Shown here: piece by piece, positions 5,802 to 20,381 of the stretch | Layout of the letters: every line of letters starts with the position of its first letter | Numbering within the stretch: position 1 is the first letter of the stretch | Assembly (NCBI GenBank): GCA_034521575.1 | Contig: JAXHMJ010000002.1 | Span: 30,706-94,705 of the forward strand | Origin: Candidatus Zhuqueibacterota bacterium | GTDB taxonomy: Bacteria; Zhuqueibacterota; Zhuqueibacteria; Residuimicrobiales; Krinioviventaceae | DNA: 64,000 bases | Reading direction: 5' to 3' | The notes under the pieces: generated by a model | Told to the model about the DNA's origin: nothing | The model's input: only the letters and a program-made list of their open reading frames with translations | Databases searched by the model: none | Position numbers and translations under genes: made by a program

Positions 5802-6257
5802 ATGGACACAGACGTATTATTGCGACGCTATCCCGAGAAAGATGCGTCCGCACTGATCCCGCTGCTTCAGGATATACAGGAAAGTTACGGTTATCTGTCG
5901 GAACCTGATCTGGCCAAAGTGGCCGGTTACTGTGACGTTCCCCTGTCGCGCATATACGGTGTGGCGACTTTTTATAATCAGTTCAGACTGCAGCCTCTGG
6001 GCAAGTATGTGATCCGTGTTTGCCGCGGAACCGCTTGTCATGTTAAAGGTTCGGGTGATTTACTGACCACACTTGAGAATGAACTCGGCATCAAAGCCGG
6101 TGAAACCACCAAGGATTTGAAATTTTCCATCGAAACCGTAGCTTGTATCGGCGCCTGTAGTATTGCGCCGGTGATTGCGATTAATGATGAATTTTACGGA
6201 AAACTGGATAATAAGAAAGTCAAGAAAATACTCAATGATCTAAAGTCTGAGGAGTAA
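5802..6257 (+). CDS. hydC: [FeFe]-hydrogenase NuoE-like [2Fe-2S] subunit (HydC/HndA family), operon 1
   Basis: Thioredoxin-like 2Fe-2S motifs CRGTAC...CIGACSIAPV. GAGAGG RBS. 151 aa. Confidence 0.88.
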   Translation: MDTDVLLRRYPEKDASALIPLLQDIQESYGYLSEPDLAKVAGYCDVPLSRIYGVATFYNQFRLQPLGKYVIRVCRGTACHVKGSGDLLTTLENELGIKAGETTKDLKFSIETVACIGACSIAPVIAINDEFYGKLDNKKVKKILNDLKSEE

Positions 6258-6260
6258 AAC

Positions 6261-8267
6261 GTGCCATTGCAGAATTCATATCAGGAGATTTTCACCAATT
6301 GCTGGCATAGTACGGAAAATCCCTGTCAATTTTTTATAGATTGTGTCAACAACGGACAAAAATGTCATCAGTCCGACGCCAGCGACAAACGACTCGATGC
6401 CTTTAAAAACGAGATTTTGTTAAACCATCATCAACATCCTGTTGTGTTGATCGGCATGGGAACCTGCGGACTTGCCAACGGCGCCGCCAAAGTTTATGAT
6501 GCCTTTAAGCAGCAGATCGATGCCCTCAATCAAAAAATCGATTTGGTGCAGACCGGATGTGTCGGATATTGTGCCAGGGAAGTGATTGTCGATGTAAAAC
6601 TTCCGGGTTCGCACCGGCTAACCTATTGTGAGGTGCAGCCTAAAGATGTTCCGACTATTGTTGAAGAAACACTGCTCAACCACCGGCCTGTGACCGACAA
6701 GCTGCTGGCGTTTCACAATGTCGGCGGCGAGCAAAAGGGCTGGGATCATGTTCTTGAAATGAAAGAAACCCCGTTTTTCAAAAAACAGCAGAAAAACGTA
6801 CTGGAAAACTGCGGCATAATCGATCCGGAAGAAATCGATCAATATTTGGCGCGCGGCGGTTATCAGGGATTATCCAAAGCGCTGTGGCAGCTGGACGCGC
6901 CCGGCGTCATCCAGCAAGTCCTGGACGGCGGTTTGCGCGGCCGCGGCGGCGGCGGTTTTCCCACCGGTAAAAAATGGCAACTCGCCTACAATTCACCCGG
7001 TGAGCAGAAATATGTGGTTTGTAATGCAGACGAAGGCGATCCCGGCGCGTTCATGGACCGAGCGGTGCTGGAAGGCGATCCGCACAAGGTGGTTGAGGGC
7101 ATGATCCTGGCTGCCTATGCGATCGGCGCCAGTGTGGGATATATTTACTGTCGTGCTGAGTATCCGCTGGCCATTCGCCGGCTGGAAAAAACCATCCAGG
7201 ATGCCAAAGCCTATGGACTGCTTGGAAAGAATATACTGGGCAGCGGGTTCAACTTTGAACTCAAGATCAAAAAAGGCGCGGGCGCCTTTGTGTGCGGCGA
7301 AGAAACAGCGCTGCTGCATTCAATTGAAGGCAAGCGGGGTATGCCCCGGCCGCGTCCCCCTTATCCGTCTGATGAAGGCCTGTTCGGCTGTCCTACCATC
7401 ATCAATAACGTGGAAACCTATGCCAATGTACCGGTGCTGATCCGAAACGGCAGCAAATGGTACTCGGATATCGGCACCGAAGGCTCCAAGGGGACCAAAG
7501 TGTTTGCCCTCTCCGGCACGGTCAAAAATGTCGGACTGGTTGAAGTGCCTATGGGTGTGACCCTGCGTGAAATTATTTTCGATATCGGCGGCGGCATTCA
7601 GGATGACAAGCCGTTCAAAGCCGTACAGATCGGCGGTCCGTCCGGCGGCGCATTGCCGGATTCGGTGATCGATACTCCGGTCGATTACGAGTCACTGAAA
7701 AGCATCGGCGCCATGATGGGCTCCGGTGGTCTGGTGGTCATGGACGAGTCCACCTGTATGGTGGATCTGGCCAAATATTTTATGACATTCATCCAGTCCG
7801 AGAGCTGCGGCAAGTGTATACCCTGCCGGGAAGGCACCAAACGGCTTTTGGAAATCCTGGAACGTCTGACCGAGAGTCACCGCAGCGAAAAAACGGTGGA
7901 AGAATCGCTGTTGCGCTTTCAGGGAATGGTTTACCTGGAACGTCTGGCAGATGTGATCAAAAATACCTCGTTATGCGGATTGGGTCAAACCGCAGCCAAC
8001 CCGGTATTGAGTACCCTTAAATATTTCCGGGAAGAGTACGAGTCTCACTTGTACGACCGAAAATGTCCGGCCGGCAGCTGCCGTCAATTGCTGACCTATA
8101 GAATTGATACCGACAAATGTACCGGCTGTACGTTGTGCGCGCGCAAATGTCCGGAAAACGCAATACTCGGAGAGCGCAAAAAAGCTCATTATATCATTGA
8201 TGAGAAATGTATCCGTTGCGACCAATGCCGCGCCAATTGCAAGTTTGATGCTATAGTCGTGGAATAA
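6261..8267 (+). CDS. hydB: [FeFe]-hydrogenase NuoF-like flavoprotein subunit (HydB/HndC family). It has an N-terminal fused HndB-like thioredoxin-like domain, a ~60-aa Cys/His-rich leader, and a C-terminal 2x[4Fe-4S] ferredoxin domain.
   Basis: GTG start 7 nt after a GAGGAG RBS. VLIGMGTCGLANGAAKV (HndB-like). NADH/FMN site GRGGGGFPTGKKW. Fe-S motifs ESCGKCIPCREG, CTGCTLCARKCP and CIRCDQCRANC. Confidence 0.88.
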   Translation: MPLQNSYQEIFTNCWHSTENPCQFFIDCVNNGQKCHQSDASDKRLDAFKNEILLNHHQHPVVLIGMGTCGLANGAAKVYDAFKQQIDALNQKIDLVQTGCVGYCAREVIVDVKLPGSHRLTYCEVQPKDVPTIVEETLLNHRPVTDKLLAFHNVGGEQKGWDHVLEMKETPFFKKQQKNVLENCGIIDPEEIDQYLARGGYQGLSKALWQLDAPGVIQQVLDGGLRGRGGGGFPTGKKWQLAYNSPGEQKYVVCNADEGDPGAFMDRAVLEGDPHKVVEGMILAAYAIGASVGYIYCRAEYPLAIRRLEKTIQDAKAYGLLGKNILGSGFNFELKIKKGAGAFVCGEETALLHSIEGKRGMPRPRPPYPSDEGLFGCPTIINNVETYANVPVLIRNGSKWYSDIGTEGSKGTKVFALSGTVKNVGLVEVPMGVTLREIIFDIGGGIQDDKPFKAVQIGGPSGGALPDSVIDTPVDYESLKSIGAMMGSGGLVVMDESTCMVDLAKYFMTFIQSESCGKCIPCREGTKRLLEILERLTESHRSEKTVEESLLRFQGMVYLERLADVIKNTSLCGLGQTAANPVLSTLKYFREEYESHLYDRKCPAGSCRQLLTYRIDTDKCTGCTLCARKCPENAILGERKKAHYIIDEKCIRCDQCRANCKFDAIVVE

Positions 8268-8281
8268 AACAGAGGAATACA

Positions 8282-9993
8282 ATGAGAATAACGATAAATG
8301 GAAAAGAATGCTGGGCCAATCCCGGAGAAACCATATTAAAAGTGGCTGAGCGGGAAGGTATCAATATCCCCACTCTTTGTTATTTAAAAGGCCTTTCTCC
8401 GACCGGTTCCTGCCGAATCTGTATAGTACAAGTTGACGGCGGCCGGATGGCGCCTTCCTGTGCGTTCCCGGTTTGCGAAGGCATGAACGTGGAAACCAAC
8501 TCTGCCCAAGTGCGCCGGGCGCGAAAAACCATTATTGAATTATTGATTGCCAATCATCCTCAGGATTGTCTGAACTGTGTCCGCAACGGCAACTGTGAAT
8601 TGCAGACGCTTGCCGAGGCTTATGGTGTACGCAGCAAGCGCTACATCGGTGAGCGCCGCAAAGCCAAACTGGATGTGGCGTCTCCGTCGATTGAACGCGA
8701 TCCGGAAAAATGTATTTTGTGCGGCCGCTGTGTGCGCGTTTGTCATGAGGTTCAGGGTGTCGGCGCCATTGATATCGCCAACCGCGGATTTCAGAGTACG
8801 GTGATGCCGGCGTTCAATCACAGTCTGAATACCGTGGCTTGTGTGTTCTGCGGTCAGTGTGTGGTCAATTGTCCCGTAGGCGCGCTGCGCGAAAAAAGCC
8901 ATGTGAAAAAAGTTTGGGAAGCGCTCAATGATCCGGACACGCTGGTGGTTTCACAGATCGCTCCGGCGGTACGTGTGGCTCTGGGTGAAGAGTTTGGACT
9001 GGAACCCGGTACCGTGGTGACCGGCAAAGCGGTGAGCGCGCTGCGCCGCATTGGCATGGATGTGGTGTTTGATACCAATTTCAGCGCCGATCTGACCATC
9101 ATGGAAGAAGCCACGGAACTGGTGTCGCGTCTGCAAAATAACGGCACCATCCCCATGCTGACCTCATGCAGTCCCGGATGGATAAAATATATAGAACATT
9201 TTTATCCCGAACTGCTGGAGCATGTGTCGAGCTGTAAATCCCCGCATCAGATGCAGGGTGCGCTGATCAAATCCTACTGGGCGGAGAAAAGGGAATCGAT
9301 CCGGAAAAGATTTTTGTAGTATCTATTATGCCCTGTACTGCCAAAAAATATGAAGCGCAGCGTCCGGAACTGGGAGATGAGCATCAGGATGTAGATGCGG
9401 TACTGACCACGCGCGAGCTGGCGCAGATGATAAAAACAGCAGGAATCGATTTTACCAGAATAGAAGATGATCATTTCGATGATCCGCTGGGCGAATCCAC
9501 TGGCGCGGCTATTATTTTCGGCGCCACCGGCGGTGTGATGGAAGCGGCGCTGCGAACCGCCCATTACAGCCTGACGGGTACGGAATGCGCTGATATTGAA
9601 TTCAAACCCATCCGCGGTCTGGAAGGCGTGAAGGAGGCTGAGATTAAGATCGACGGCACCGAACTCAGGGTTGCTGCGGTCAACAGTCTCAGCCAGATCA
9701 AATCTCTGCTCGATGATATCCGCGACGGCAAATCGCCGTATCAATTCATTGAAGTGATGGCCTGTCCGGGCGGCTGTATCAACGGCGGCGGTCAGCCACT
9801 GCCCTCGGATGCGGAAAAAACTGAAAAACGTATGCAGTCCATTTACAAGATCGACCGCGGGCTGCCGAAACGCTGTTCGCACCAGAATGAATCAGTGCAA
9901 AGACTGTATCAGGAATTTCTGGAAAAACCGAACAGCCACAAAGCCCACGAACTGCTGCACACACATTACGTCAAACGCACGGAAAGTGTCTAA
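8282..9993 (+). CDS. hydA: [FeFe]-hydrogenase catalytic subunit (HydA, group A multimeric type), operon 1. It is split by an apparent 1-nt deletion near 9283 into 8282..9319 and 9328..9993.
   Basis: N-terminal 2Fe-2S and His-ligated/4Fe-4S ferredoxin modules (CRICIV, HPQDCLNCVRNGNCELQ, CILCGRCVRVC, CVFCGQCVVNCP). H-cluster motifs TSCSPGW (L1, non-canonical), MPCTAKKYE (L2) and EVMACPGGCINGGGQP (L3). Paralog alignment with the 18606 gene shows a missing 't' in 'aaaa(t)ggg'. Confidence 0.85.
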
Positions 9994-10002
9994 TATCATA
10001 TT

Positions 10003-12033
10003 ATGGCTGTTGTCTGGACCATAGAAGAAAAATGCCGGCGCTGCTATTCCTGCGTCCGGGAATGTCCGGCCAAGGCGATCAAGGTTGAACACGGTCAGGC
10101 CAAAGTGATCGAGAACCGATGCCTGGGATGCGGACATTGTGTAAATGTGTGCTCTCAGGGTGCCAAAGAAGTGCTGAACGGCACCCGGGAGGTCATGCAT
10201 TACCTAAAATCGGACAGCGTGATTGCCATGCTGGCGCCGTCGTTTCCGGCTGTTTATCCGGATCTGGATACCCAACAGCTCGTCGGCGCCCTGCGCGCCT
10301 GCGGGTTTGATAAAGTCGTTGAAGTGGCATTCGGCGCGGATCTGGTCAACAAGGCGTATTTGCATCTGCTAAAAGCCCCTGATGATCCGGATATCGAAAC
10401 AATGCTGCCGGTGATTGCATCGTCGTGTCCGGCGATTTTTTCCTATGTTCAGAAATATATACCGGAGCTGGTACCGCATATTGCCCGCATTGTATCGCCG
10501 ATGGTGGCCATGGGACGCGCAGTGAATTATTTATATGGTCAGGACAAACGGGTGGTTTTCATCGGACCCTGCACGGCTAAAAAAGTTGAAATACAGGATG
10601 AACAGGTCAGTGATTCCGTGGATATGGTGCTGACCTTTGCCGAGCTGAACGATCTGTTTCAGTATTATCAAATTGATTTTGATGCTGTTGCCCCCCGGCC
10701 TCTGGATCCGCCGCATGCGTATCTGGGACGCCTGTATCCGGTGTCAGGCGGTTTTCTGCGCAGCGCCGGACTGCCTACGGATCTGATGAATGATGATATT
10801 GTGTTAACCGAGGGCAAAAACCGGGTTCTCAATTTGCTGGATCTGGTGAAGAAAAAGGAAATCGACGCCAAGCTTATTGATGTGCTGTTTTGTGAAGGCT
10901 GTATCAGCGGTCCGTTTTCCAATAAAAGTGAAAATTATTTTGACAGCAAGCGCAACATTGTGCGCTATACCGAGAACCGGCGCAACCAGGCCGATTATCC
11001 GGCCTGGCGGGAAACAATCGAAGACTGTTTGTCCCACGTAAATCTATATCGTTCTTTTAAAGCAGAATCGGTCAATAACCCCGAGCCGACGGAAGAAGAG
11101 ATTTCTGAAATTCTGGCGCGCATTGATAAACATGAAAAATCCGACGAGCTGAACTGCGGCGCCTGCGGCTATTCTTCATGCCGCGAACACGCGGTTGCGG
11201 TTTATCAGGGACTGGCCGAAGCGGATATGTGTCTGCCATTTCTTATCGACAAGATGGAACATATGAAAAATAAACTGCAGGCCTCTCTGGACAAGCTTGC
11301 GACCACGCAGGAGCAGTTGATTCAACATGAAAAACTGGCGTCAATCGGACAGCTGGCGGCCGGAGTCGCGCATGAAGTCAATAATCCGCTCGGTTCAATC
11401 CTGCTGTACGCGCATCTGGTCAAACAGCGAATGGATCAGGCTGAGGACGATGCAAAAGATCTGAGCTTTATTATCGAGGAAGCCAAACGCTGTCAGAACA
11501 TTGTATCCGGTCTGCTTGATTTTTCACGACAGGGACAGCTTACACTCAAACAGAATCATGTACCGGATATTATTTTGAAAATGATTGAGGTGGTCAAAGA
11601 ACAGCCCGAGTTTAAGCATGTCCGAATTCATACGGAATTTGCTGATGATCTGCCCGAGATTTATGTTGATGAGGATCAGCTGTATCAGGTGTTTTTGAAT
11701 ATCACCATGAATGCGGCTGAAGCTATGCCGGAGGGAGGAGACCTGACCATCAAGGCATTTTTGGATGATGACACCAACAAGATGCGCATCACATTCACGG
11801 ACACCGGTGTTGGAATCTCCAAAGACAATCAGAGCAAGGTGTTTACCCCCTTTTTCACCACAAAACAGATCGGCAAGGGAACCGGCCTGGGTCTGGCGAT
11901 CGCCTATGGTATATTAAAAATGCATAAAGGCAATATTCGTGTTAAAAGCGAGGTTGATAAAGGATCTACCTTTATTGTTGATATTCCCCTCGCTTCTAAT
12001 CAAACCATAACCAAAAAGGAGCAAGATGACTAA
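10003..12033 (+). CDS. HydS-like sensory [FeFe]-hydrogenase domain fused to a histidine kinase transmitter (2x[4Fe-4S] ferredoxin + H-domain + Cx2Cx4Cx16C + HisKA + HATPase_c)
   Basis: Ferredoxin motifs CRRCYSCVRECP and CLGCGHCVNVC. H-cluster-like motifs SSCP (L1 with first Cys to Ser), GPCTAKKVE (L2), FCEGCISGP (L3 variant). CGACGYSSC-x16-C. H-box HEVNNPLG. N/G boxes NITMNAAEAM, DTGVGI, GKGTGLGLAIAYG. Start is 10 nt after the hydA stop. Confidence 0.85.
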   Translation: MAVVWTIEEKCRRCYSCVRECPAKAIKVEHGQAKVIENRCLGCGHCVNVCSQGAKEVLNGTREVMHYLKSDSVIAMLAPSFPAVYPDLDTQQLVGALRACGFDKVVEVAFGADLVNKAYLHLLKAPDDPDIETMLPVIASSCPAIFSYVQKYIPELVPHIARIVSPMVAMGRAVNYLYGQDKRVVFIGPCTAKKVEIQDEQVSDSVDMVLTFAELNDLFQYYQIDFDAVAPRPLDPPHAYLGRLYPVSGGFLRSAGLPTDLMNDDIVLTEGKNRVLNLLDLVKKKEIDAKLIDVLFCEGCISGPFSNKSENYFDSKRNIVRYTENRRNQADYPAWRETIEDCLSHVNLYRSFKAESVNNPEPTEEEISEILARIDKHEKSDELNCGACGYSSCREHAVAVYQGLAEADMCLPFLIDKMEHMKNKLQASLDKLATTQEQLIQHEKLASIGQLAAGVAHEVNNPLGSILLYAHLVKQRMDQAEDDAKDLSFIIEEAKRCQNIVSGLLDFSRQGQLTLKQNHVPDIILKMIEVVKEQPEFKHVRIHTEFADDLPEIYVDEDQLYQVFLNITMNAAEAMPEGGDLTIKAFLDDDTNKMRITFTDTGVGISKDNQSKVFTPFFTTKQIGKGTGLGLAIAYGILKMHKGNIRVKSEVDKGSTFIVDIPLASNQTITKKEQDD

Positions 12034-12412
12034 CCATATTTTACTGATCGATGACGACGTCGATTTTGTGGAAATGAATAAAACCTTTTTGGAAACCAAA
12101 GGGTATACGGTAGATACCGCATACAATGGAACCGAAGGGGTGGAGCGCGTCAAAGAATCCGCGCCGAACTTGATCGTTCTGGATGTTATGATGGATCAGG
12201 TGGGGGAAGGATTTGAAGTGGCGCGGACTCTGAAACAGGATGAACAGTATAAACACATTCCCATCATCATGCTCACATCCGTAAACAAGGAACATGGATT
12301 TGATCTGACGGTGGGTGCGGACGAACAATGGAATCCTGTCGATTGCTTTTTAGAGAAACCATTGTCGCCTCAGGATTTATTAGCAAAAGTCAGAGAATTT
12401 TTGTCGGAATAA
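12026..12412 (+). CDS. stand-alone response-regulator receiver (CheY-like, no output domain)
   Basis: LLIDDDVDF...LIVLDVMMD...LTS...K: the Asp pocket and phospho-Asp are conserved. The gene overlaps the sensor-kinase stop. Confidence 0.85.
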   Translation: MTNHILLIDDDVDFVEMNKTFLETKGYTVDTAYNGTEGVERVKESAPNLIVLDVMMDQVGEGFEVARTLKQDEQYKHIPIIMLTSVNKEHGFDLTVGADEQWNPVDCFLEKPLSPQDLLAKVREFLSE

Positions 12413-12430
12413 ACAGGATAGGGAAACAGA

Positions 12431-12823
12431 ATGAACGATAAAGTACTTTTGGTAGATGATGATGTCGATCTGATTGAACAATATACACCGGTTCTGGAGC
12501 AGGCCGGTTATCAGGTAAAAGGCGCCTATGACAGCAAAGAAGGCCTGGAGGCATTTGAAGCATTTAAACCGGATGTGGTTTTTGTTGATCTGGCCATGGA
12601 GCAGTTTGATTCCGGGTTTGTGCTTTGCCAAAAGCTGAAAAAAACGCAAAAAGGTGCAGACACGCCGGTGATTATCATGACCTCAGCCGGTCACGAAACC
12701 GGTATTCGCTTTTCCACGGATACGGCGGAGGAGAAAAAATGGATCCGCGCGGATGATTATCTGGAAAAACCGGTTGCGCCCCGCGATCTGGTGCAATATC
12801 TGAATGAAAAAATCTTTAAATGA
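12431..12823 (+). CDS. stand-alone response-regulator receiver (second copy, no output domain)
   Basis: VLLVDDDVDL...VVFVDLAME...MTS...K. 130 aa. Confidence 0.85.
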   Translation: MNDKVLLVDDDVDLIEQYTPVLEQAGYQVKGAYDSKEGLEAFEAFKPDVVFVDLAMEQFDSGFVLCQKLKKTQKGADTPVIIMTSAGHETGIRFSTDTAEEKKWIRADDYLEKPVAPRDLVQYLNEKIFK

Positions 12824-14301
12824 AAATTAAAAACGCCGACATATTGGTTGTGGATGATGAACGCGGTATGCGGGAAGGGATTCAGAGACTGCTGGGCCTG
12901 AAAGGCCTGAATGTGGATACGGCCGAGAGTGGCAGTGAAGGGATTGAAAAAGGCATTTCAAAAGAATATGACCTGTATTTCATTGATCTGAAAATTCCGG
13001 ATATTGAAGGCACCCAGGTGCTGCGTGAGATCAAGCTGGCCTATCCTGAAGCGATTTGTGTGATCCTGACCGCTTATGCGTCCATTGAAACCGCCATTGA
13101 AACCACTCAGCTCGGCGCTTATCAATATATTCCCAAACCGTTTGATCCGGAAGAGCTGCAGAATCTGGTCAACCGGGCGCTCGAAAAACGCTGGTACGTG
13201 CTGGAAGCGCGTCAGCTGCGTGAAGAGCGCGAAAAACGTCTTTTGGAACTGCAGCATGAACAATCGCGGGTCCGCAGTATCGTCAATGCTTTGGATGACG
13301 GGGTGGTGGTGATCAATGTGGACGGCCAGGTGGTGTTTCACAACTCGAGTTTTTTAAAGATGCTCAATGTGCCCAATGATTTTCAGACCGGTGAACAGGT
13401 TTGGGATATTGTGCCGGGAGAACTGCATGACCAGATCAAGGAGGTCATGGCGCAGCAGGATGATTTTCGCGCCATCAAACAGGAAATCACCATCAAACCG
13501 CCGGCTGAACTGGTGCTGATGGCCAACACGACGCCCATTGTTGATACGGATCATGAACTCATCGGTGTGGTATCGGTTTTACGCGATATTTCGGAACTCA
13601 AAAAACTGGACATTTTGAAATCCCAGTTTGTGAATATGGCAGCCCATGAACTCAAGGCGCCCCTGGCTGCCGTTCAGGGATACCTTGATTTGATCATTGA
13701 TCGTTCCCTCGGAGACAATCTTGACAGCTATCAGACCTACCTGGAGCGCTCCCACGACCGCCTCGAAGCTCTTATTTCCATGATCAATGATCTTTTGAAT
13801 ATTTCCAGAATGGAAGCCGGCAAAGTCAGACGTGAAATTGAACAAGTCGATCTGGCCGGTTTGCTTAAAGATAAAATTGAACTGTTTACAAAAGAAATAA
13901 AGCAGAAAAATTTACAACTTGATATTCGTCTGCAGAAAGATTTCATGGTGAAATGCGATCGCGAAGAAATAGAACGCGTTTTTAACAATCTGATCAGCAA
14001 TGCCGTCAAATATAATAAAGAAAACGGTACAATATCGATCAAAGCAGGTAAAGACGGACACTATGCCAAAGTCAGTGTCAGTGATACCGGAATCGGTTTG
14101 CAGCCTGATGAAAAGGACCGGCTGTTTGAAGAATTTTATCGGGCTAAAAACAAGTTTACACGAAAAATCACCGGTACCGGACTGGGTTTGTCTATTGTCA
14201 AACGTATTATAGACGCCAACGCCGGAAAAATCATTGTCGAAAGTGAATTTGAAAAAGGAACAACCTTTACCGTCTTTTTGCCACTGGAAACTGAATACTA
14301 G
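12820..14301 (+). CDS. hybrid sensor kinase: N-terminal REC + PAS + HisKA + HATPase_c
   Basis: REC (ILVVDDERGM...LYFIDLKIPD), PAS-like segment (VVVINVDGQVVFHNSSFLKM), H-box AAHELKAPL, N box NLISNAVKYN, G boxes DTGIGL/GTGLGLSIV. Overlaps the upstream REC stop (ATGA). Confidence 0.85.
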   Translation: MKIKNADILVVDDERGMREGIQRLLGLKGLNVDTAESGSEGIEKGISKEYDLYFIDLKIPDIEGTQVLREIKLAYPEAICVILTAYASIETAIETTQLGAYQYIPKPFDPEELQNLVNRALEKRWYVLEARQLREEREKRLLELQHEQSRVRSIVNALDDGVVVINVDGQVVFHNSSFLKMLNVPNDFQTGEQVWDIVPGELHDQIKEVMAQQDDFRAIKQEITIKPPAELVLMANTTPIVDTDHELIGVVSVLRDISELKKLDILKSQFVNMAAHELKAPLAAVQGYLDLIIDRSLGDNLDSYQTYLERSHDRLEALISMINDLLNISRMEAGKVRREIEQVDLAGLLKDKIELFTKEIKQKNLQLDIRLQKDFMVKCDREEIERVFNNLISNAVKYNKENGTISIKAGKDGHYAKVSVSDTGIGLQPDEKDRLFEEFYRAKNKFTRKITGTGLGLSIVKRIIDANAGKIIVESEFEKGTTFTVFLPLETEY

Positions 14302-14350
14302 AGCGGCATAACACTGCCGCGACAGAGGTCAACCAACGGAGGACATCTGT

Positions 14351-14692
14351 ATGAAGCTGTCAGAGATTGCTCAGGCTCTCGGTCTGGACATAATCAGCGG
14401 TGAATCGAATCTGGACAAACAAGTGGAATATGGCTATTTGTCTGATATTCTCAGTGATGTGATGTCCAGGGCGCCTAAAGCAGCGATCTGGATCACCAAT
14501 CAAACCCATGAAAATATCCTGGCCCTGGTCTTCTTCAAGGGACTGGCCGGGGTGATCCTGCCGGAAAACATGTCTCTGGAAGAGGCGTCGATTAAAAAAG
14601 CGGAAGAGAAAAATATACCGGTGTTTCGAAGCAATTTGACGGCATTCGATATCGCCGGTCGATTGTACGAGCTGGGTATACGAGGTCAATAA
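14351..14692 (+). CDS. DRTGG-domain protein (hydrogenase-associated small regulator)
   Basis: 113 aa. Sequence LSDILSDVMS...NILALVFFKGLAGVIL is typical of the DRTGG/CBS-associated domain found next to HydABC operons. Confidence 0.6.
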   Translation: MKLSEIAQALGLDIISGESNLDKQVEYGYLSDILSDVMSRAPKAAIWITNQTHENILALVFFKGLAGVILPENMSLEEASIKKAEEKNIPVFRSNLTAFDIAGRLYELGIRGQ

Positions 14693-15444
14693 TGCTCAGT
14701 TGGTACAAAGCGGATTTGCATATCCATACGGTGCTTTCGGCCTGTGCTGAACTCAGCATGGGACCGAAAGATATTGTCCGTAAGAGCCTTGAACAGGGAC
14801 TGGATATCATCGCGATCACCGATCATAATTCCGCTGAAAATATCACGGCCGTCATCAAAGCCGCGGAATCGACCGATTTGCTGGTGCTTCCCGGTATGGA
14901 AGTGTACAGCCGCGACGAGGCGCATATTGTCTGTCTGTTTGAAACCCTGGGTGATGTGCTTGCGTTTCAGCGTATCATCTATGCGGCAGTGGCTGAAGGC
15001 AAATATGATTCAAGTATGTTCGGCGAGCAGATTCTTTGTGATGCGAATGAAAATGTACTCGGTGAAAGCGATCGGCTTTTATCGCTGCCGGTGAATCTGA
15101 ATCTGGATCAGATTGCGGATTATATTGCAGAGTTTAACGGCATTATGATTCCGGCGCATGTGGACCGGCGGTCTCACAGCATCTTGCGGGTGCTGAGTTT
15201 TATGCCGAATAATCTTCCGATTTACGCAATGGAGATCGCGCATTCGTATGAAAAGGCGTGCAAATCTTTCAGTATATTAAAGAACGGCAAGTATTCGGTG
15301 ATCCGCTCTTCGGATGCGCATGATATTGATCAGATTGGCCAAAAGTTTACGTATTTCAAGCTAAAAGAAAAGTCGTTCAGCGAGATACGCAAGGCCCTGC
15401 GTCAGGTGGACGGACGAATGGCATCACTGGACAAGGTGAACTGA
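14692..15444 (+). CDS. PHP-domain (polymerase/histidinol-phosphatase-like) metal-dependent phosphoesterase
   Basis: ADLHIHTVLS...IAITDHNS...HVDRR His/Asp metal-binding motifs. Start overlaps the DRTGG stop (TAATG). Confidence 0.75.
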   Translation: MLSWYKADLHIHTVLSACAELSMGPKDIVRKSLEQGLDIIAITDHNSAENITAVIKAAESTDLLVLPGMEVYSRDEAHIVCLFETLGDVLAFQRIIYAAVAEGKYDSSMFGEQILCDANENVLGESDRLLSLPVNLNLDQIADYIAEFNGIMIPAHVDRRSHSILRVLSFMPNNLPIYAMEIAHSYEKACKSFSILKNGKYSVIRSSDAHDIDQIGQKFTYFKLKEKSFSEIRKALRQVDGRMASLDKVN

Positions 15445-15992
15445 TGCGCGAACTGTCGCTGAACATACTGGATATCATCACCAATTCCATCGAAGCGGAG
15501 GCAAACCGTGTGATTCTGCATATTGATGAAGACAAGGTGGAAAATCGTCTGACTTTTCGGATTCGGGACAACGGCCGCGGCATGAGTCAGGAATTTGTCC
15601 GGCAGGTGATGGATCCGTTTGTCACATCGCGCACCACGCGTCCGGTGGGCATGGGCCTGTCACTGTTGCACCAGCTGGCGCGGCAGGCGCGCGGAGACCT
15701 TGATATTCGATCAGAACTCGGTCAGGGTACGGAGGTCAGTACCTATTTGCGACTGCATTGCCTCAATCGACCGCCTCTGGGTGATGTGGGCGGGACGATT
15801 GTCAATCTGGTGATCAGCAATCTGGATGTGCATTTTATGTACATCCACACAACAGACTATGGACGGCTCTGGTTTGATTCTTACTGGATACTGGCGCGGG
15901 CGGCGGAACAGGATAAAACGCTTTACGATATGATTCATCCGTCTTTGGAACATATCAAAAGCCGGTTGAAAGACATTAATTCGAAAGCATAA
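15444..15992 (+). CDS. GHKL/HATPase_c-type ATP-binding protein (anti-sigma-factor / Ser-kinase-like)
   Basis: NILDIITNSIEA (N-box-like), RIRDNGRGM (G1), GMGLSLL (G2). Overlaps the PHP stop (CTGATG). Confidence 0.7.
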   Translation: MRELSLNILDIITNSIEAEANRVILHIDEDKVENRLTFRIRDNGRGMSQEFVRQVMDPFVTSRTTRPVGMGLSLLHQLARQARGDLDIRSELGQGTEVSTYLRLHCLNRPPLGDVGGTIVNLVISNLDVHFMYIHTTDYGRLWFDSYWILARAAEQDKTLYDMIHPSLEHIKSRLKDINSKA

Positions 15993-16010
15993 AATGAGAG
16001 AATAACAGGT

Positions 16011-16033
16011 TCCCGGGTGAATCCGGGATTTTA
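16011..16033 (+). terminator. weak hairpin (CCCGG-gtgaat-CCGGG) followed by ATTTT, between the HATPase gene and hndB
   Basis: 5-bp GC stem plus a short T-tract. Possible attenuator/terminator separating the regulatory genes from hydrogenase operon 2. Confidence 0.3.
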
Positions 16034-16064
16034 GAATGGAAACCAAAGACAAGGAGGTCCAGAA

Positions 16065-16427
16065 GTGAAAACACTTGCAGATCTTCGCGCGGTCAAAGAA
16101 CAAGCCAAAAAAGAAATGGCCGCTCGTGAAAAAACAGCAAAGTACCGTGTCTGTGTCGGCATGGGCACATGCGGTATTGCAGCAGGCGCCCGGGATGTGA
16201 TGAGCGCGCTGCTGGACGAAATCAGTAAACGAGGTGTTGAAGACGCGGTGGTCACGCAGACGGGCTGCCAGGGATACTGTGATCAGGAACCGCTGGTACA
16301 GGTGACTCAGCCGGATAAAACTGTCATTTCCTACGGCAAAGTGACGCCCCAGAGCGCCCGTGATATTGTGGCGCAGCATATCATAGAGGGTAACGTGCTC
16401 TCTGATCTGGTGTTTAAACAGGATTAA
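16065..16427 (+). CDS. hndB: HndB-like small thioredoxin-like [2Fe-2S] ferredoxin subunit, operon 2
   Basis: VCVGMGTCGIAAGA...CQGYCDQEP. GTG start after an AAGGAGG RBS. Confidence 0.8.
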   Translation: MKTLADLRAVKEQAKKEMAAREKTAKYRVCVGMGTCGIAAGARDVMSALLDEISKRGVEDAVVTQTGCQGYCDQEPLVQVTQPDKTVISYGKVTPQSARDIVAQHIIEGNVLSDLVFKQD

Positions 16428-16474
16428 GAAGAACAAATCAAGACGTGTATACGCGTTAAACAAGGAGGTTATCA

Positions 16475-16951
16475 ATGCAGAACTTGGATCGAGTGGATGC
16501 GATCGTGAAAAATTATAACGATATGAAAACACCACTCATTTACATTCTCAAGGATGTTCAGAAAGAATACGGATTTCTCTCTGAGGATATTCTGACGCGG
16601 GTCGCACAGAGAACCGATATCCCTCTGAGCAATATCTATGGTGTTGCGACATTTTACAGTCTCTTCACCACAGAAGAAAAGGGCAAATATATCGTTCGCT
16701 GCTGCAACAATGCCCCCTGTCATGTCAAAGGTTCAAAAGATGTTCTGGATGCAATCCAGAATTATCTCGGTGTGCAGGTCAATGAGACCTCACTGGACAA
16801 GACATTTACTCTGGAATTTACCAGCTGTCTCGGATTGTGTGCGGTTGCTCCCGTCATGATGATCAATGACGAGGTATATGGTAATCTGACTCCGGAAAAA
16901 GCAGTGTCAATTTTGAAAGATTATAAAATGAAAGGGCTGTCGAATGCATAG
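16475..16951 (+). CDS. hndA: NuoE-like [2Fe-2S] subunit (HndA/HydC family), operon 2
   Basis: CCNNAPCHVKG...CLGLCAVAPV. Paralogous to 5802..6257. Confidence 0.88.
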   Translation: MQNLDRVDAIVKNYNDMKTPLIYILKDVQKEYGFLSEDILTRVAQRTDIPLSNIYGVATFYSLFTTEEKGKYIVRCCNNAPCHVKGSKDVLDAIQNYLGVQVNETSLDKTFTLEFTSCLGLCAVAPVMMINDEVYGNLTPEKAVSILKDYKMKGLSNA

Positions 16952-18546
16952 ATCACATATACTCATCGCAATGGACGCTCACACGATAGCCCAGGGTGCC
17001 CGTGCCGTCAAGGAGGCTCTCGTGCGTGAGCTTGAAATGGCAAATCTCGGCAATGAGGTCAAGGTTGTTGAAACCGGCAGTCTGGGAATTTACAACAAGG
17101 GCGTGGTTCTGGTTGTGTTTCCGGATGCGGTTTACTATGCCGGTGTCAAGGTGGAAGATGTATCCGAGATTATTTCCGAGCACATTATCAAAGGGCGCAT
17201 TGTCGAACGTCTGCGCTATACCGACGTACCCGAATACAAAGAAGGCGAACAGGGCGAAGCCCCGCGCTTTGGCAAACAGATACGCGTTGTGTTGAAGAAC
17301 GCCGGCAATATTGATCCGGAAAGCATTCAGGAATATATCGCGAATGACGGTTATGAAGCGCTGGGACGTGCATTGACCGAGATGAAACCCGGTGAGGTGC
17401 TGGAAACCGTGAAAAACAGTGAACTGCTGGGACGCGGCGGCGCGTTTTTTCCCACTGGATTGAAATGGAGTTTTGCCGCAGCTGAAAAAAACACGCCCAA
17501 ATATATTGTCTGTAACGCCGATGAAGGCGAACCCGGCACATTTAAAGACCGGTTGATCCTGGAAGGCGATCCGCACCTCATTTTAGAGGGTATGGCACTG
17601 TCCGGATACGCGGTCGGCGCATCCATGGGCTATATTTACATTCGCGGTGAATATAAAATGTCCATTGAACGCATCAACCGCGCCATTGAACAGGCGCGTG
17701 AAAACGGATTGTTGGGCGAAAACCTGTTCGATTCGGATTTTTCTTTTGATATTGAGGTGCGTGAAGGCGCAGGCGCCTATATCTGCGGTGAGGAAACCGC
17801 TTTGATTGAATCGATCGAAGGCAAACGCGGTGAACCGCGTGATAAACCGCCGTTTCCGCCGTCAGAAGGTCTGTGGGGTAAACCCACAATCGTCAATAAT
17901 GTGGAAACTCTGGCCAATATTCCGCCGATTCTGCGCAATGGTCCGGACTGGTTCAAGAAAATGGGAACCGAGAAAAGCCGCGGCACCAAGGTGTTTACCA
18001 TGGTCGGCAATATCAACAATCCCGGATTGATCGAAGTGCCCATGGGCATCACGCTTCGTGAAATCATTTACGATATCGGACATGGCATTCCCAACGGCAA
18101 GGGCTTTAAACTGGCTCAGATGGGCGGCACCACCGGTGGTATTCTGACGGAAGAACACCTGGACATGCCCATGACGGTTGAAAATCTGCGCAGTGTCGGA
18201 GCCGGTCTGGGTTCGGGCGCTCTGCTGGTGGTTGATGAGTCTCAGGATGTGGTTGATCTGGTTCGCAATTTTGTTGAATTTTTCAACCATGAATCCTGCG
18301 GCAAATGTACACTGTGCCGTGAAGGCAACGGTCGACTGCTGCAGCTGCTGGATAAAATCCTGGACGGTCAGGGAACCGTTAAAGATATTGAATTGATGCA
18401 AGAATTTGGCACAGACCATGATGAAAGGCGCGTTCTGCGGCCTGGGTCAGGCCGCTCCCATTCCCGTGCTGGGATGTCTGAACCATTTCAGGAAAGATTT
18501 TCTGGCGGTTGTCCAAACCGCAGCGTCTGAAATTGAAGCTGCCTGA
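16944..18546 (+). CDS. hndC: NuoF-like flavoprotein subunit (HndC/HydB family), operon 2. An apparent 1-nt indel near 18405-18417 moves the last ~40 aa into another frame. It has no fused N-terminal HndB domain and no C-terminal ferredoxin tail.
   Basis: GRGGAFFPTGLKW, HESCGKCTLCREG. Then TMMKGAFCGLGQAAPIPV...AASEIEAA in frame +1, matching the NTSLCGLGQTAANPV tail of the paralog. Confidence 0.85.
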
Positions 18547-18605
18547 GGTCTGTGAAGCAATGTTGAACTGGAACTGTGATAATCATGAATAAACGGAGGT
18601 GTCCT

Positions 18606-20345
18606 GTGGCAAACGTCACCGTAACCATAGACGGCATTCAGCTGAGTGTTCCCCAGGGGACAACAGTCATGGATGCTGCAGAAAAAGCAAAAATACAAAT
18701 TCCACGATTGTGCTATCATCCTGATCTTCCTCCGGTCTCCGCCTGCCGCCTGTGTGTGGTCGAAATTGAAGGCGACCGGCTGTTGAGAACCGCGTGTTCC
18801 TGGAAGTGTCAGGACGGTATGAACATCAAAACACGCACCAAACAGGTGCGCGATTCCCGTAAAATGGCGCTGGAACTGATTCTGTCGCGTCACCCCATGT
18901 TGTGCACCGAATGTGTGCGCAATCAGGATTGCGAACTCCAGAGCATGGCGGAACAGCTGGGTATTCGCGAAACCCGTTTTGAATACTCGGAGCGTCCCGG
19001 TGTAGCCGATCATTCCAGTGAAGCGATTGTTCGCGATCCGGCCAAATGTATCCTGTGCCGCCGTTGTATCCAGACCTGTGAACTGGTGCAGAGCGTCAGC
19101 GCGATCGGCCTGGAAGGCCGCGGCTATGATACCTGGGTGGATACACCGTTCGGCAAAGGCATCGCCGATGTGGCGTGTGTGTCCTGTGGTCAATGTATCG
19201 ACCGCTGTCCGGTCGGCGCCTTGTACGAAAATCCGCATATCCAGCGTGTCTGGGATGCGATTGATGATCCGGAAAAACATGTGGTCATCCAGACGGCTCC
19301 GGCTGTCCGCGCTGCCATTGGCGAAGAGTTCGGTATGGAACCGGGGTCACTGGTCACGGATAAAATGGTGACCGGTCTGCGCATGCTGGGTGTGGACAAG
19401 GTGTTTGATACCAACTTTACCGCGGATCTGACCATTATGGAAGAAGGTCATGAGCTGCTGGGTCGCATCAAAAACGGCGGTACTTTGCCGCTCTTGACCA
19501 GCTGTTCGCCGGGATGGATTAATTTTATCGAGCATTTCTATCCCAGTCTGCTGCCGCACGTGTCCTCCTGTAAATCGCCGCAGCAGATGTTCGGCGCTTT
19601 GGCAAAAACCTATTACGCGGATAAAATGGGTATCAAACCGGAAAATATTTACAGTGTTTCGGTCATGCCCTGCACCGCGAAAAAAGTCGAAGCCGGACGT
19701 CCTGAGATGAACGACAGCGGATTCCAGGATGTGGATGCGGTACTGACCACGCGCGAAGCGGCGTTTATGATGAAACAGGTGGGTATCAATCTACCGGATT
19801 TGCAGCCCGGCGAATATGATGAACCTCTGGGTGTATCAACCGGCGCCGCTGTGATTTTCGGCAACACCGGCGGTGTGATGGAAGCGGCCCTGCGTACCGT
19901 GTATGAAGTGGTGACCGAATCCAAGATCGAAGATGTCAATATCAAAGCCGTACGCGGCATGCAAGGCGTTCGTGAAGCGGAAATCAATCTAAACGGCACC
20001 ATCGTCAAGGGCGCGGTCGCCAACGGACTGGCCAATGCGCGCCAGCTCATGGACAAGATCGTGTCCGGTGAAGCGGATTACCACTTTATCGAGATCATGG
20101 CCTGTCCGGGCGGATGTATCGGCGGCGGCGGTCAGCCGATCCCGACGTCCATGGACATCCGTCAGAAACGTGTGGATGCCATCTATGCGGCGGATGAAAG
20201 TCTCGAAATCCGCAAATCACATGAAAATCCGGCGGTGATCAAACTCTATAAAGAGTTCCTGGGTGAACCGAACGGACATAAATCTCATGAACTGCTGCAC
20301 ACGCATTATACGGAAAAACAGGTCTACAAAGACGTACCTGCTTAA
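18606..20345 (+). CDS. hndD: [FeFe]-hydrogenase catalytic subunit, operon 2 (intact). A GTG start at 18606 is assumed after a GGAGG RBS; an upstream ATG at 18576 is possible.
   Basis: N-terminal ferredoxin modules as in hydA. H-cluster motifs TSCSPGW, MPCTAKKVE and EIMACPGGCIGGGGQP. Confidence 0.88.
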   Translation: MANVTVTIDGIQLSVPQGTTVMDAAEKAKIQIPRLCYHPDLPPVSACRLCVVEIEGDRLLRTACSWKCQDGMNIKTRTKQVRDSRKMALELILSRHPMLCTECVRNQDCELQSMAEQLGIRETRFEYSERPGVADHSSEAIVRDPAKCILCRRCIQTCELVQSVSAIGLEGRGYDTWVDTPFGKGIADVACVSCGQCIDRCPVGALYENPHIQRVWDAIDDPEKHVVIQTAPAVRAAIGEEFGMEPGSLVTDKMVTGLRMLGVDKVFDTNFTADLTIMEEGHELLGRIKNGGTLPLLTSCSPGWINFIEHFYPSLLPHVSSCKSPQQMFGALAKTYYADKMGIKPENIYSVSVMPCTAKKVEAGRPEMNDSGFQDVDAVLTTREAAFMMKQVGINLPDLQPGEYDEPLGVSTGAAVIFGNTGGVMEAALRTVYEVVTESKIEDVNIKAVRGMQGVREAEINLNGTIVKGAVANGLANARQLMDKIVSGEADYHFIEIMACPGGCIGGGGQPIPTSMDIRQKRVDAIYAADESLEIRKSHENPAVIKLYKEFLGEPNGHKSHELLHTHYTEKQVYKDVPA

Positions 20346-20353
20346 CAAACAGA

Positions 20354-20381
20354 GCCCCGGGTTGACGCCCGGGGCTTTTTT
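20354..20381 (+). terminator. rho-independent terminator after hydrogenase operon 2
   Basis: GCCCCGGG-ttgacg-CCCGGGGC, an 8-bp GC stem, followed by TTTTTT. Confidence 0.85.

What the first reader, a model, noticed from the sequence alone, without database searches (positions are those of the whole stretch)
14351..15992. Conserved but uncharacterised DRTGG / PHP / GHKL-ATPase trio embedded between two hydrogenase operons
The three genes are translationally coupled (TAATG, CTGATG overlaps). In Thermotogae and Clostridia they recur next to NADH-dependent [FeFe]-hydrogenase genes, and no function is established for them there. Here they sit exactly between an H2-sensing phosphorelay and the second hydrogenase operon. 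A GHKL ATPase of the anti-sigma/Ser-kinase type plus a PHP phosphoesterase looks like a kinase/phosphatase partner-switch pair. They may act on the DRTGG protein or on hydrogenase subunits.
Basis: partly seen in the sequence, partly recalled or inferred. Interest (0 to 1): 0.55.

Follow-up and report, generated by a model that had tools for sequence, protein, structure and literature searches.

The report
Hydrogenase-linked DRTGG, PHP and ATPase genes
Three small overlapping genes (a DRTGG-fold protein, a PHP metal phosphoesterase and a histidine-kinase-type ATP-binding protein) are really there, and they belong to a widespread, still uncharacterised gene module that sits beside NADH-linked hydrogenase operons and is a leading candidate for the missing signalling partners of hydrogen-sensing [FeFe]-hydrogenases.

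Summary
Three ORFs (14351-14692, 14692-15444, 15444-15992, + strand) overlap by one base each and match Pfam DRTGG, PHP and HATPase_c. They lie between a HydS-histidine-kinase phosphorelay and a second HydABC-type operon.

The trio is not a local oddity. The ATPase family has 849 representatives at 50% identity and occurs in at least 589 species genomes across many phyla. In 66 of 79 loci it is followed by a small [2Fe-2S] ferredoxin, and it is almost always embedded in a NuoE/NuoF-type hydrogenase or formate-dehydrogenase-like operon. DRTGG plus PHP lie upstream in 56 of 69 loci.

The common form of the cluster also carries a second DRTGG protein, an RsbW-like kinase and a group D sensory hydrogenase. 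In the KSB1 lineage of this window, a HydS-HK relay replaces those three genes. At least five independent PHP-ATPase fusion proteins show that these two act as one unit.

A kinase/phosphatase reading is plausible but unproven. The ATPase is histidine-kinase-type, not anti-sigma-type. The PHP protein's nearest solved relatives are nucleases and nucleotidases, not protein phosphatases. It is not a histidinol phosphatase.

Verdict: a real, conserved, uncharacterised regulatory module. It is a known kind in a new variant, of moderate to high interest.

The parts
14351..14692 (+). DRTGG-fold protein (113 aa), the 'DRTGG2' type that always sits just upstream of the PHP gene
14692..15444 (+). PHP-family metal-dependent phosphoesterase (250 aa)
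   Evidence: Pfam PHP scores 42.3 bits. Residues H10, H12, D44/H45, E70, H78, H156, D208 and H210 are invariant, as are the family-specific C18, M23, Q113 and E181. The nearest solved relatives are EndoQ, RNase AM, TM0559 and pAp phosphatase.
15444..15992 (+). Stand-alone GHKL ATP-binding protein (182 aa): a histidine-kinase-type catalytic domain (about residues 1-105) with no DHp/His domain, plus a conserved C-terminal extension of about 75 aa
10003..12033 (+). Sensory-type [FeFe]-hydrogenase fused to a histidine kinase (HydS-HK). This is the presumed H2 input.
   Evidence: Pfam hits are Fer4, Fe_hyd_lg_C (169 bits), FeS (PF04060), HisKA and HATPase_c. The H-cluster motifs SSCP, GPCTAKK and FCEGC are visible in the translation.
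12026..12412 (+). Single-domain response regulator
   Evidence: Pfam Response_reg scores 73.8 bits.
12431..12823 (+). Single-domain response regulator
   Evidence: Pfam Response_reg scores 75.5 bits.
12820..14301 (+). Hybrid receiver-PAS-histidine kinase. It has no DNA-binding output and directly precedes the trio in all KSB1-type loci.
   Evidence: Pfam hits are Response_reg, PAS, HisKA and HATPase_c. The same position is seen in L001, L003, L004, L007-L009 and L085.
16065..16427 (+). Small thioredoxin-like [2Fe-2S] ferredoxin (120 aa). It is the most constant downstream neighbour of the ATPase.
   Evidence: Pfam 2Fe-2S_thioredx scores 26.8 bits. It is the gene after the ATPase in 66 of 79 loci.
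16475..16951 (+). NuoE/HydC-like subunit
16944..18530 (+). NuoF/HydB-like subunit. Its C-terminus is frameshifted near 18400.
18576..20345 (+). HydA [FeFe]-hydrogenase catalytic subunit of the second operon
5802..9993 (+). First HydC/HydB/HydA operon. Its hydA is split by a frameshift near 9285. It runs straight into HydS-HK.

Best explanation
The trio is the conserved effector half of a signalling module dedicated to NuoE/NuoF-type (HydABC/Bfu-type) hydrogenase operons.

Shown:
- The ATPase gene belongs with the hydrogenase structural genes. It sits next to NuoE and the small [2Fe-2S] ferredoxin.
- DRTGG2 plus PHP co-occur with a sensor/input module.
- PHP and the ATPase form one functional unit, because they are fused in several lineages.
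- The ATP site and the PHP metal site are both under strict conservation.
- The input module is interchangeable. It can be DRTGG1 plus an RsbW-like kinase plus group D HydS, a CBS-containing version of that kinase, or, as here, a HydS-HK phosphorelay.
- None of these input versions has a DNA-binding output.

Inferred mechanism:
- The ATPase acts as an ATP-dependent kinase, or an ATP-driven switch, on a protein of the hydrogenase's NADH/ferredoxin module or on DRTGG2.
- The PHP enzyme reverses the modification.
- DRTGG2 couples the PHP/ATPase pair to the H2 or redox sensor.
- Hydrogenase activity would thus be set post-translationally according to H2 or redox state.
- The logic resembles a constitutive kinase opposed by a signal-controlled phosphatase.
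For: Anatomy, domains and overlaps.

Synteny: L001, L003/L004 and L085 carry the identical 15-gene layout. A genome scan found at least 589 species with a relative, and 80 loci were annotated.
- Of 69 loci with at least 3.5 kb upstream, 56 have PHP plus DRTGG, 47 have an RsbW-like HATPase_c_2 and 43 have a HydS-like gene.
- Of 52 loci with at least 5 kb downstream, 43 have a NuoG-type catalytic subunit.
- The gene after the ATPase is the small 2Fe-2S ferredoxin in 66 of 79 loci. The gene before it is NuoE in 43 and PHP in 30.
- PHP presence tracks the presence of an input module: 43 of 47 loci with PHP have one, against 1 of 11 without PHP.

Fusions: PHP-ATPase in L025, L055, P0341, P0387 and P0411. 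DRTGG1-HATPase_c_2 in L067.

Conservation: ATP-site residues are invariant in 79 copies, and PHP metal ligands are invariant.

Output: the receivers are single-domain and the kinases carry only PAS/HisKA/HATPase domains. In Thermoanaerobacterium the transcriptional regulator next door is Rex, a separate system.

Literature: kinases between sensory and bifurcating hydrogenases have been noted but not studied (PMC3561251). Signalling partners of group D HydS are unknown (PMC13104023).
Against: No direct evidence of protein phosphorylation exists.

The PHP subfamily is closest to nucleic-acid and nucleotide phosphoesterases: EndoQ 2e-12 and RNase AM 8e-9. It shows no detectable similarity to the PHP tyrosine phosphatases.

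Thirteen of the 69 loci with enough upstream sequence carry the ATPase without PHP within 6 kb, and all but one of those also lack DRTGG, so DRTGG2 cannot be its only partner.

The 80 loci are the best tblastn hits, not a random sample.
Confidence: 0.45

Rival explanations
1. ATP-gated nuclease or nucleotide phosphoesterase. The PHP enzyme cleaves a nucleic acid (for example hyd mRNA) or a nucleotide signal. The ATPase acts as a MutL-like ATP-driven switch. DRTGG acts as a nucleotide-binding regulator. Control would then be post-transcriptional or through a small molecule, not through protein phosphorylation.
Against: By sequence the ATPase is clearly a histidine-kinase catalytic domain: 1e-15 to KinB against 2.5e-5 to MutL. 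No nucleic-acid-binding domain is present. The context is always metabolic and sensor-linked. A second, RsbW-like protein kinase sits in the canonical cluster.
Confidence: 0.2
2. Accessory or maturation factors. The three proteins would help assemble or repair the NuoE/NuoF/ferredoxin module (flavin or Fe-S insertion) rather than signal.
For: The ATPase gene lies inside the structural operon, between NuoE and the ferredoxin, in 43 loci. In L010 it precedes hypA/B/F/D. In L087 a related DRTGG/CBS-kinase set sits next to hypA/D/E/C.
Against: The first HydABC operon in this same window has no such genes. DRTGG and PHP track sensor modules, not enzyme presence. From general knowledge, native and recombinant HydABC(D) enzymes are purified active without these proteins. 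In a synthetic operon Tte0891 was treated simply as a hypothetical protein (PMC4694547).
Confidence: 0.1
3. Auxiliary parts of the two-component relay. The ATPase would be a trans-acting catalytic domain for a DHp-containing kinase, and PHP would be a phosphatase for the phosphorylated receivers encoded just upstream.
For: In KSB1-type loci the trio always follows the receiver-PAS-kinase, and two output-less receivers lie upstream. In L010 the ATPase directly follows that kinase.
Against: Most lineages with the trio have no receivers or classical kinases nearby. Both kinases in the window already carry their own catalytic domains.
Confidence: 0.08
4. Unrelated housekeeping genes, for example a histidinol phosphatase, lying here by chance.
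For: Weak domain-level hits to histidinol-phosphatase models.
Against: Those hits are far below their cut-offs (22.8 against 90.2 bits). Gene order is conserved across at least 10 phyla and fusion proteins exist.
Confidence: 0.02

Closest known systems
The 'histidine kinase-like' ORF inside clostridial/Thermoanaerobacter bifurcating hydrogenase operons (Tte0891, Cthe_0339), together with the upstream group D (M2e) sensory hydrogenase cluster
   Same: Same ATPase family and same place in the operon. A Thermoanaerobacterium locus (L067) has DRTGG-HATPase_c_2 | HydS | DRTGG | PHP | NuoE | ATPase | Fd | NuoF | HydA, with 40% identity to the window protein. The literature places a kinase between the sensory and the bifurcating hydrogenase (PMC3561251, PMC3990059, PMC4694547).
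   Different: Here the DRTGG1 / RsbW-like kinase / group D HydS half is replaced by a HydS-histidine-kinase fusion, two receivers and a hybrid kinase. NuoE lies after the ferredoxin, not before the ATPase. I did not align Tte0891 or Cthe_0339 themselves.
Partner-switching modules (RsbW/RsbV/RsbU; SpoIIAB/SpoIIAA/SpoIIE)
   Same: A small GHKL kinase, an opposing phosphatase and a small alpha/beta partner protein are encoded together. A constitutive kinase opposed by a regulated phosphatase is a plausible shared logic. DRTGG has an invariant Ser at a helix N-terminus, as the phospho-acceptor does in STAS proteins (the STAS comparison is from general knowledge).
   Different: The ATPase is HATPase_c-type, not HATPase_c_2. 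The partner has a DRTGG fold, not STAS. The phosphatase is PHP, not PP2C. No sigma factor is involved.
Mitochondrial PDK/BCKDK kinases with their phosphatases
   Different: There is no four-helix N-terminal domain here, and no evidence that a hydrogenase subunit is phosphorylated.
H2-sensing regulatory [NiFe]-hydrogenase HoxBC with HoxJ kinase and HoxA regulator (general knowledge)
   Same: A catalytically slow hydrogenase acts as an H2 sensor coupled to a histidine kinase that controls hydrogenase genes. The HydS-HK fusion upstream of the trio is the [FeFe] analogue.
   Different: HoxA is a DNA-binding output. Here no DNA-binding protein is encoded, and the trio occupies the output position.
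HPr kinase/phosphorylase
   Different: The HPrK/P catalytic domain is P-loop, not GHKL, and it uses phosphorolysis rather than a PHP hydrolase.
MutL (GHL ATPase plus metal-dependent endonuclease)
   Different: Sequence similarity to MutL is marginal (2.5e-5 over residues 10-63). There is no transducer domain, and the context has nothing to do with DNA repair.

Membership tests
Pfam DRTGG (PF07085) | Profile score above the gathering threshold | tested here: met
   The score is 26.0 bits against a cut-off of 25.2, which is marginal. Most homologues carry PF07085 precomputed.
Pfam DRTGG (PF07085) | DRTGG fold as in AF1212 and the CBS-pyrophosphatase insert | tested here: met
Pfam DRTGG (PF07085) | The eponymous conserved D-R-T-G-G residues | tested here: inconclusive
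   The DRTGG2 consensus keeps T49 but reads W.T.Q.H.N and LAGVILP where DRTGG1 has LLTGL and VRGK. The mapping to the Pfam motif was done by eye only.
PHP superfamily (PF02811) | Profile match plus the His/Asp/Glu metal-binding motifs | tested here: met
   The score is 42.3 bits against a cut-off of 26.4. H10, H12, D44, H45, E70, H78, H156, D208 and H210 are invariant in 51-59 sequences.
Histidinol-phosphate phosphatase, HisJ/HisK type | Family model above its cut-off; his-operon context | tested here: not met
   TIGR01856 scores 22.8 bits against a cut-off of 90.2, and the other HolPase models are also far below theirs. Every context seen is hydrogenase-linked.
PHP protein-tyrosine phosphatases (CpsB/YwqE) | Detectable sequence relationship to the solved members | tested here: not met
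   A family profile searched against all PDB sequences at E<=1 returns EndoQ, RNase AM, TM0559, pAp phosphatase, PolC and YcdX, but no CpsB or YwqE.
Two-component sensor histidine kinase | HATPase_c catalytic domain with N, G1 and G2 boxes | tested here: met
   HATPase_c scores 63.8 bits. N14, D42-x-G44-x-G46 and G69-x-G71 are invariant.
Two-component sensor histidine kinase | DHp/HisKA dimerisation domain with a phospho-acceptor His | tested here: not met
   The protein starts 9 residues before the N-box, there is no HisKA hit, and the first helix of the model is the N-box helix.
Anti-sigma factor Ser kinases (RsbW/SpoIIAB, HATPase_c_2) | HATPase_c_2-type domain; STAS antagonist and sigma factor partners | tested here: not met
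   There is no HATPase_c_2 hit at E<=0.01. TIGR01925 scores 30.5 bits against a cut-off of 135. The partner has a DRTGG fold, not STAS. No sigma factor gene lies in the operon.
GHL ATPases (MutL/GyrB/Hsp90/MORC) | Extended Bergerat fold | tested here: met
GHL ATPases (MutL/GyrB/Hsp90/MORC) | Catalytic Glu four residues before the Mg-binding Asn; a transducer domain supplying a Lys | tested here: not met
   The position four residues before N14 is an invariant Asp (D10), not Glu. The protein ends at residue 182 with no transducer domain. Whether Asp can substitute for Glu is not testable here.
Clostridial sensory-hydrogenase/kinase/bifurcating-hydrogenase cluster (M2e type) | The ATPase gene embedded beside NuoE, ferredoxin, NuoF and HydA, with DRTGG and PHP upstream | tested here: met
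Clostridial sensory-hydrogenase/kinase/bifurcating-hydrogenase cluster (M2e type) | Stand-alone group D HydS with an RsbW-like kinase and a first DRTGG protein | tested here: not met
   There is no second DRTGG and no HATPase_c_2 protein anywhere in the 64 kb window. A HydS-HK relay takes that place.

The most novel reading that the evidence does not exclude
DRTGG, PHP and the ATPase form a previously unrecognised type of phospho-signalling switch, a functional analogue of partner switching built from different folds. It would be the long-sought output of sensory [FeFe]-hydrogenases (group D, and the kinase-linked group C). It would act post-translationally on the NADH/ferredoxin module of electron-bifurcating hydrogenases and related Bfu-type enzymes.
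Probability: 0.35. Interest if true: 0.8.

Novelty: new variant of a known kind. Interest (0 to 1): 0.6.

Why it matters
Electron-bifurcating hydrogenases set the H2, NADH and ferredoxin balance of anaerobic fermenters, syntrophs and acetogens.

How cells sense H2 through sensory [FeFe]-hydrogenases is an open question. A 2026 study of the group D sensor concluded that finding its interaction partners is critical (PMC13104023).

This analysis names concrete candidates: two DRTGG proteins, an RsbW-like kinase, a PHP enzyme and a histidine-kinase-type ATPase. It shows that PHP and the ATPase are one unit. It also shows that the same output trio is wired to at least three different input modules.

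That makes the question directly testable in tractable organisms. It also suggests that hydrogenase activity may be controlled after translation, which matters for engineering H2 or ethanol yield.

Tried and rejected
- Histidinol phosphatase or other housekeeping role for PHP: rejected, because the scores are far below the cut-offs.
- Anti-phage system: PHP resembles the N-domain of Ppl/TrlF. PADLOC gives only weak domain-level hits for PHP and nothing for the other two proteins, and the context is metabolic. Rejected.
- Promoter and terminator scan of 5400-20700: the counts are no better than shuffled sequence. It gives no evidence for internal promoters or terminators. A 6-bp GC hairpin at 16011-16028 between the ATPase and the ferredoxin gene was not pursued.
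- Literature searches for DRTGG plus hydrogenase, and for PHP plus FeFe plus kinase, found nothing relevant. The D. vulgaris DRTGG hit concerns a different protein. Zheng et al. 2014 was not available.
- The 'HoxY/HoxH' pair that fills the sensor slot in L015 and L021 turned out to be NuoB/NuoD-like (Oxidored_q6 and Complex1_49kDa). I do not claim it is a [NiFe] H2 sensor.
- Apparent long PHP or DRTGG ORFs (about 290-310 aa) in some loci are longest-ORF start artefacts, not fusions. Only fusions with both domains scored in one ORF or protein were counted.
Full report

Yes. The window holds three consecutive + strand ORFs at 14351-14692 (113 aa), 14692-15444 (250 aa) and 15444-15992 (182 aa). 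The stop of each overlaps the start of the next by one base: TAATG at 14690-14694 and CTGATG at 15441-15446. Each start has a Shine-Dalgarno-like motif upstream.

Pfam assigns DRTGG (26.0 bits, just above the 25.2 cut-off, plus a weak Hpr_kinase_N hit), PHP (42.3 bits, plus PHP_C) and HATPase_c (63.8 bits, plus HATPase_c_3 at 36.3 bits).

All genes from 5802 to 20345 are on the + strand with short or negative gaps:
- NuoE, NuoF and HydA (first operon).
- A hydrogenase-like protein fused to HisKA and HATPase_c (10003-12033). It has Fe_hyd_lg_C at 169 bits, the PF04060 Fe-S motif and visible H-cluster Cys motifs.
- Two single-domain receivers.
- A receiver-PAS-histidine kinase.
- The trio.
- A 120-aa thioredoxin-like [2Fe-2S] ferredoxin, then NuoE, NuoF and HydA (second operon).

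The window is from a candidate division KSB1 genome. An identical protein is named from that source.

**2. How widespread is it, and with what does it travel?**

*Family sizes and spread.* Each of the three proteins belongs to a family of stand-alone proteins of the same length. An exhaustive profile search gave 849 representatives (clusters at 50% identity) of the ATPase family at E<=1e-30. These come from KSB1, Bacteroidota, many Clostridia, Halanaerobiales, Selenomonadales, Desulfobacterota, Chloroflexota, Planctomycetota, Actinomycetes and others. Further look-ups added WOR-3 and Spirochaetota.

The common form is: DRTGG1 | RsbW-like HATPase_c_2 kinase (about 140 aa, or about 320 aa with an N-terminal CBS pair) | HydS-like sensory hydrogenase (about 420-460 aa) | DRTGG2 | PHP | [NuoE] | ATPase | small 2Fe-2S ferredoxin | NuoF | HydA.

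*Counts.*
- Of 69 loci with at least 3.5 kb upstream of the ATPase gene, 56 have PHP and DRTGG, 43 have two DRTGG genes, 47 have the RsbW-like kinase and 43 have a HydS-like gene.
- Of 52 loci with at least 5 kb downstream, 43 have a NuoG-type catalytic subunit: 35 HydA, 5 molybdopterin (formate-dehydrogenase-like) and 3 others.
- The gene after the ATPase is the small ferredoxin in 66 of 79 loci.
- The gene before it is NuoE in 43 loci and PHP in 30.

*Two patterns matter for function.*
- The ATPase can occur without DRTGG and PHP. This is the NuoE | ATPase | Fd | NuoF | HydA form, seen in at least 10 loci. PHP and DRTGG2 are present almost only when an input module is present: 43 of 47 loci with PHP have one, against 1 of 11 without PHP. 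The trio is therefore the seam between a sensor unit and the enzyme operon.
- The input module is interchangeable. DRTGG1 + RsbW-like kinase + HydS occurs in 29 loci. DRTGG1 + CBS-kinase without HydS occurs in 9. The HydS-HK + receiver + receiver + receiver-PAS-kinase relay occurs in 5, plus the window and L085.

None of these inputs carries a DNA-binding domain. In a Thermoanaerobacterium locus the adjacent transcription factor is Rex, a separate and well-known NADH sensor.

**3. Fusions**

In-frame PHP-ATPase fusions occur in L025 (Sedimentisphaerales) and L055. They also occur in three further cluster representatives, P0341, P0387 and P0411 (427-433 aa; PHP at the N-terminus and the full ATPase at the C-terminus). 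P0341 sits directly after a DRTGG gene and a hydrogenase fragment carrying the Fe-S motif.

A DRTGG1-RsbW-like kinase fusion occurs in L067.

These fusions show that PHP and the ATPase act as one unit. They also show that DRTGG proteins pair physically with the enzyme encoded after them.

**4. What each protein looks like**

*ATPase.* By sequence it is a histidine-kinase catalytic domain. The family profile hits KinB at 1e-15 and ZraS at 1e-13, but MutL only at 2.5e-5 over 54 residues. It has no DHp/His domain, because it begins nine residues before the N-box.

All nucleotide-site residues are invariant in 79 copies, including copies from loci without PHP. These residues are D10, N14, D42, G44, G46, D57-P58-F59, T61, R63, R66, G69, G71, G95 and T96. 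The protein therefore binds and uses ATP. Whether it transfers phosphate or only hydrolyses ATP cannot be decided here.

It is not an anti-sigma-type kinase.

*PHP.* All canonical metal ligands are invariant, as are the family-specific C18, M23, Q113 and E181. C18 lies six residues after the HxH motif. My reading that this is where many PHP enzymes have a metal-binding Asp or His rests on memory and was not tested.

The nearest solved relatives are EndoQ (2e-12), RNase AM (8e-9), a Bifidobacterium phosphoesterase, TM0559 and a pAp phosphatase. No histidinol phosphatase and no CpsB/YwqE protein phosphatase is detected. The chemistry (phosphoester hydrolysis) is secure, but the substrate is open.

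Both DRTGG types share a D-L-(L/M)-S-D-V motif with an invariant Ser35 at the start of a helix. DRTGG1 additionally keeps invariant R58, R72 and K74, which DRTGG2 lacks. The Ser could be a phospho-acceptor. Equally, the domain could be a regulatory or dimerising adaptor, as it is in HPrK/P and CBS-pyrophosphatases. The DRTGG-kinase fusion and the trans pairing of DRTGG with CBS favour the adaptor reading slightly.

**5. Most likely mechanism**

*Shown:* this is a conserved module tied to NuoE/NuoF-type hydrogenase operons, with an ATP-using GHKL protein belonging to the enzyme operon. The PHP/DRTGG2 pair belongs to the sensor side. PHP and the ATPase work as one unit, the inputs are interchangeable, and no transcriptional output is encoded.

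*Inferred:* the ATPase modifies a protein by phosphorylation. Candidates are its most constant neighbours (the small ferredoxin and NuoE) or DRTGG2. PHP removes the modification under control of the H2 or redox sensor through DRTGG2. Hydrogenase activity would then be tuned post-translationally.

I put about 0.45 on this reading. Within it, DRTGG2 as the substrate is less likely than not.

*Rivals:*
- An ATP-gated nuclease or nucleotide phosphoesterase (0.2). It is supported by the PHP relatives and the MutL-like fold.
- An assembly or maturation role (0.1).
- Auxiliary parts of the two-component relay (0.08).
- Chance or housekeeping (0.02).

**6. Comparison with what is known**

The presence of a 'histidine/serine kinase' between monomeric sensory (M2e, group D) and trimeric bifurcating hydrogenases was noted in comparative genomics (PMC3561251). 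Cthe_0339 is annotated as a histidine kinase inside Cthe_0338-0342 (PMC3990059). Tte0891 is called a hypothetical protein within hydC-tte0891-hydD-hydB-hydA (PMC4694547). [quoted passage not shown]

No held paper links DRTGG or PHP to hydrogenases. A 2026 study states that the interaction partners of the group D sensor remain to be identified (PMC13104023).

So the gene family and its location are known, but the function is not. The following appear to be new descriptions:
- the DRTGG and PHP components;
- the fusions;
- the split of the trio between sensor side and enzyme side;
- the extension to non-[FeFe] partners;
- the KSB1 variant in which a HydS-HK relay replaces the group D half.

**7. 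Verdict**

The feature is real and conserved. I rate it a new variant of a known but uncharacterised kind, with interest 0.6.

*Caveats:*
- The 80 genome loci are the best hits, not a random sample.
- My locus annotation uses ad hoc profiles and longest ORFs.
- The Thermotogae claim was not checked.
- Everything about substrates is inference.

Noticed in passing
window 9270-9310 (hydA of the first operon, ORFs 8282-9319 and 9328-9993): The first HydA is split by a frameshift at an A/G run (GGAGAAAAGGG). The +2 frame continues with GIDPEKIFVVSIMPCTAKK, matching the intact 570-aa orthologue in L001. This is either an assembly indel or a pseudogene.
   Followed up: partly
window ~18390-18420 (NuoF-like gene 16944-18530): The C-terminus of the second NuoF-like gene is frameshifted. 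Another frame reads MMKGAFCGLGQAAPIPVLGCLNHFRKDF, matching L001. As annotated, the protein loses its last Fe-S motif.
   Followed up: partly
window 45-718 and 898-2074: A sigma-54 activator fragment (ORFs 45-380 and 329-718) and the succinyl-CoA synthetase beta gene (898-1836 and 1655-2074) also look split by frameshifts. Four such breaks in 20 kb suggest error-prone assembly rather than real gene decay.
   Followed up: no
window 10003-12033: This sensory-type [FeFe]-hydrogenase is fused directly to HisKA and HATPase_c with no PAS domain. It starts 10 bp after the first hydA. Its H-cluster motifs read SSCP, GPCTAKK and FCEGC, so the proton-relay Cys of catalytic enzymes is missing.
   Followed up: partly
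window 16011-16028: A 6-bp GC-rich hairpin (TCCCGG...CCGGGA) followed by TTTTAG lies in the 72-bp gap between the ATPase gene and the ferredoxin gene. It could be a weak attenuator or an RNA-processing site. The scan as a whole was no better than shuffled sequence.
   Followed up: no
L010 10001-15164: In another KSB1 genome, two HydS-HK fusions and the same relay are followed by the ATPase alone (no DRTGG or PHP) and then by hypA, hypB, hypF and hypD. This links the ATPase to [NiFe] maturation genes.
   Followed up: partly
L025, L049, L055 (Planctomycetota and relatives): DRTGG1 | CBS-kinase | DRTGG2 | PHP(-)ATPase sits inside an operon. Upstream lie a NuoF-type subunit (fused to a GltD-like domain in L025) and downstream a 1081-aa NuoG-like/flavoprotein subunit, with [NiFe] small and large subunit genes nearby. 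There is no sensory hydrogenase.
   Followed up: partly
L015 6189-6914; L021 6312-8751: In two Desulfobacterota-type loci the slot normally held by HydS contains NuoB-like and NuoD-like (Complex1_49kDa) genes, and the downstream catalytic subunit is a molybdopterin enzyme.
   Followed up: partly
L067 5557-6189: In Thermoanaerobacterium a Rex-type redox repressor gene overlaps the start of the DRTGG-kinase fusion gene. Transcriptional (Rex) control and the kinase module are therefore co-encoded.
   Followed up: no
window 14692-15444, residue 18 of the PHP protein: An invariant Cys lies six residues after the HxH motif, in the consensus S-P-C where TM0559 has S-D-G. It is a possible redox-sensitive or unusual metal ligand.
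   Followed up: no
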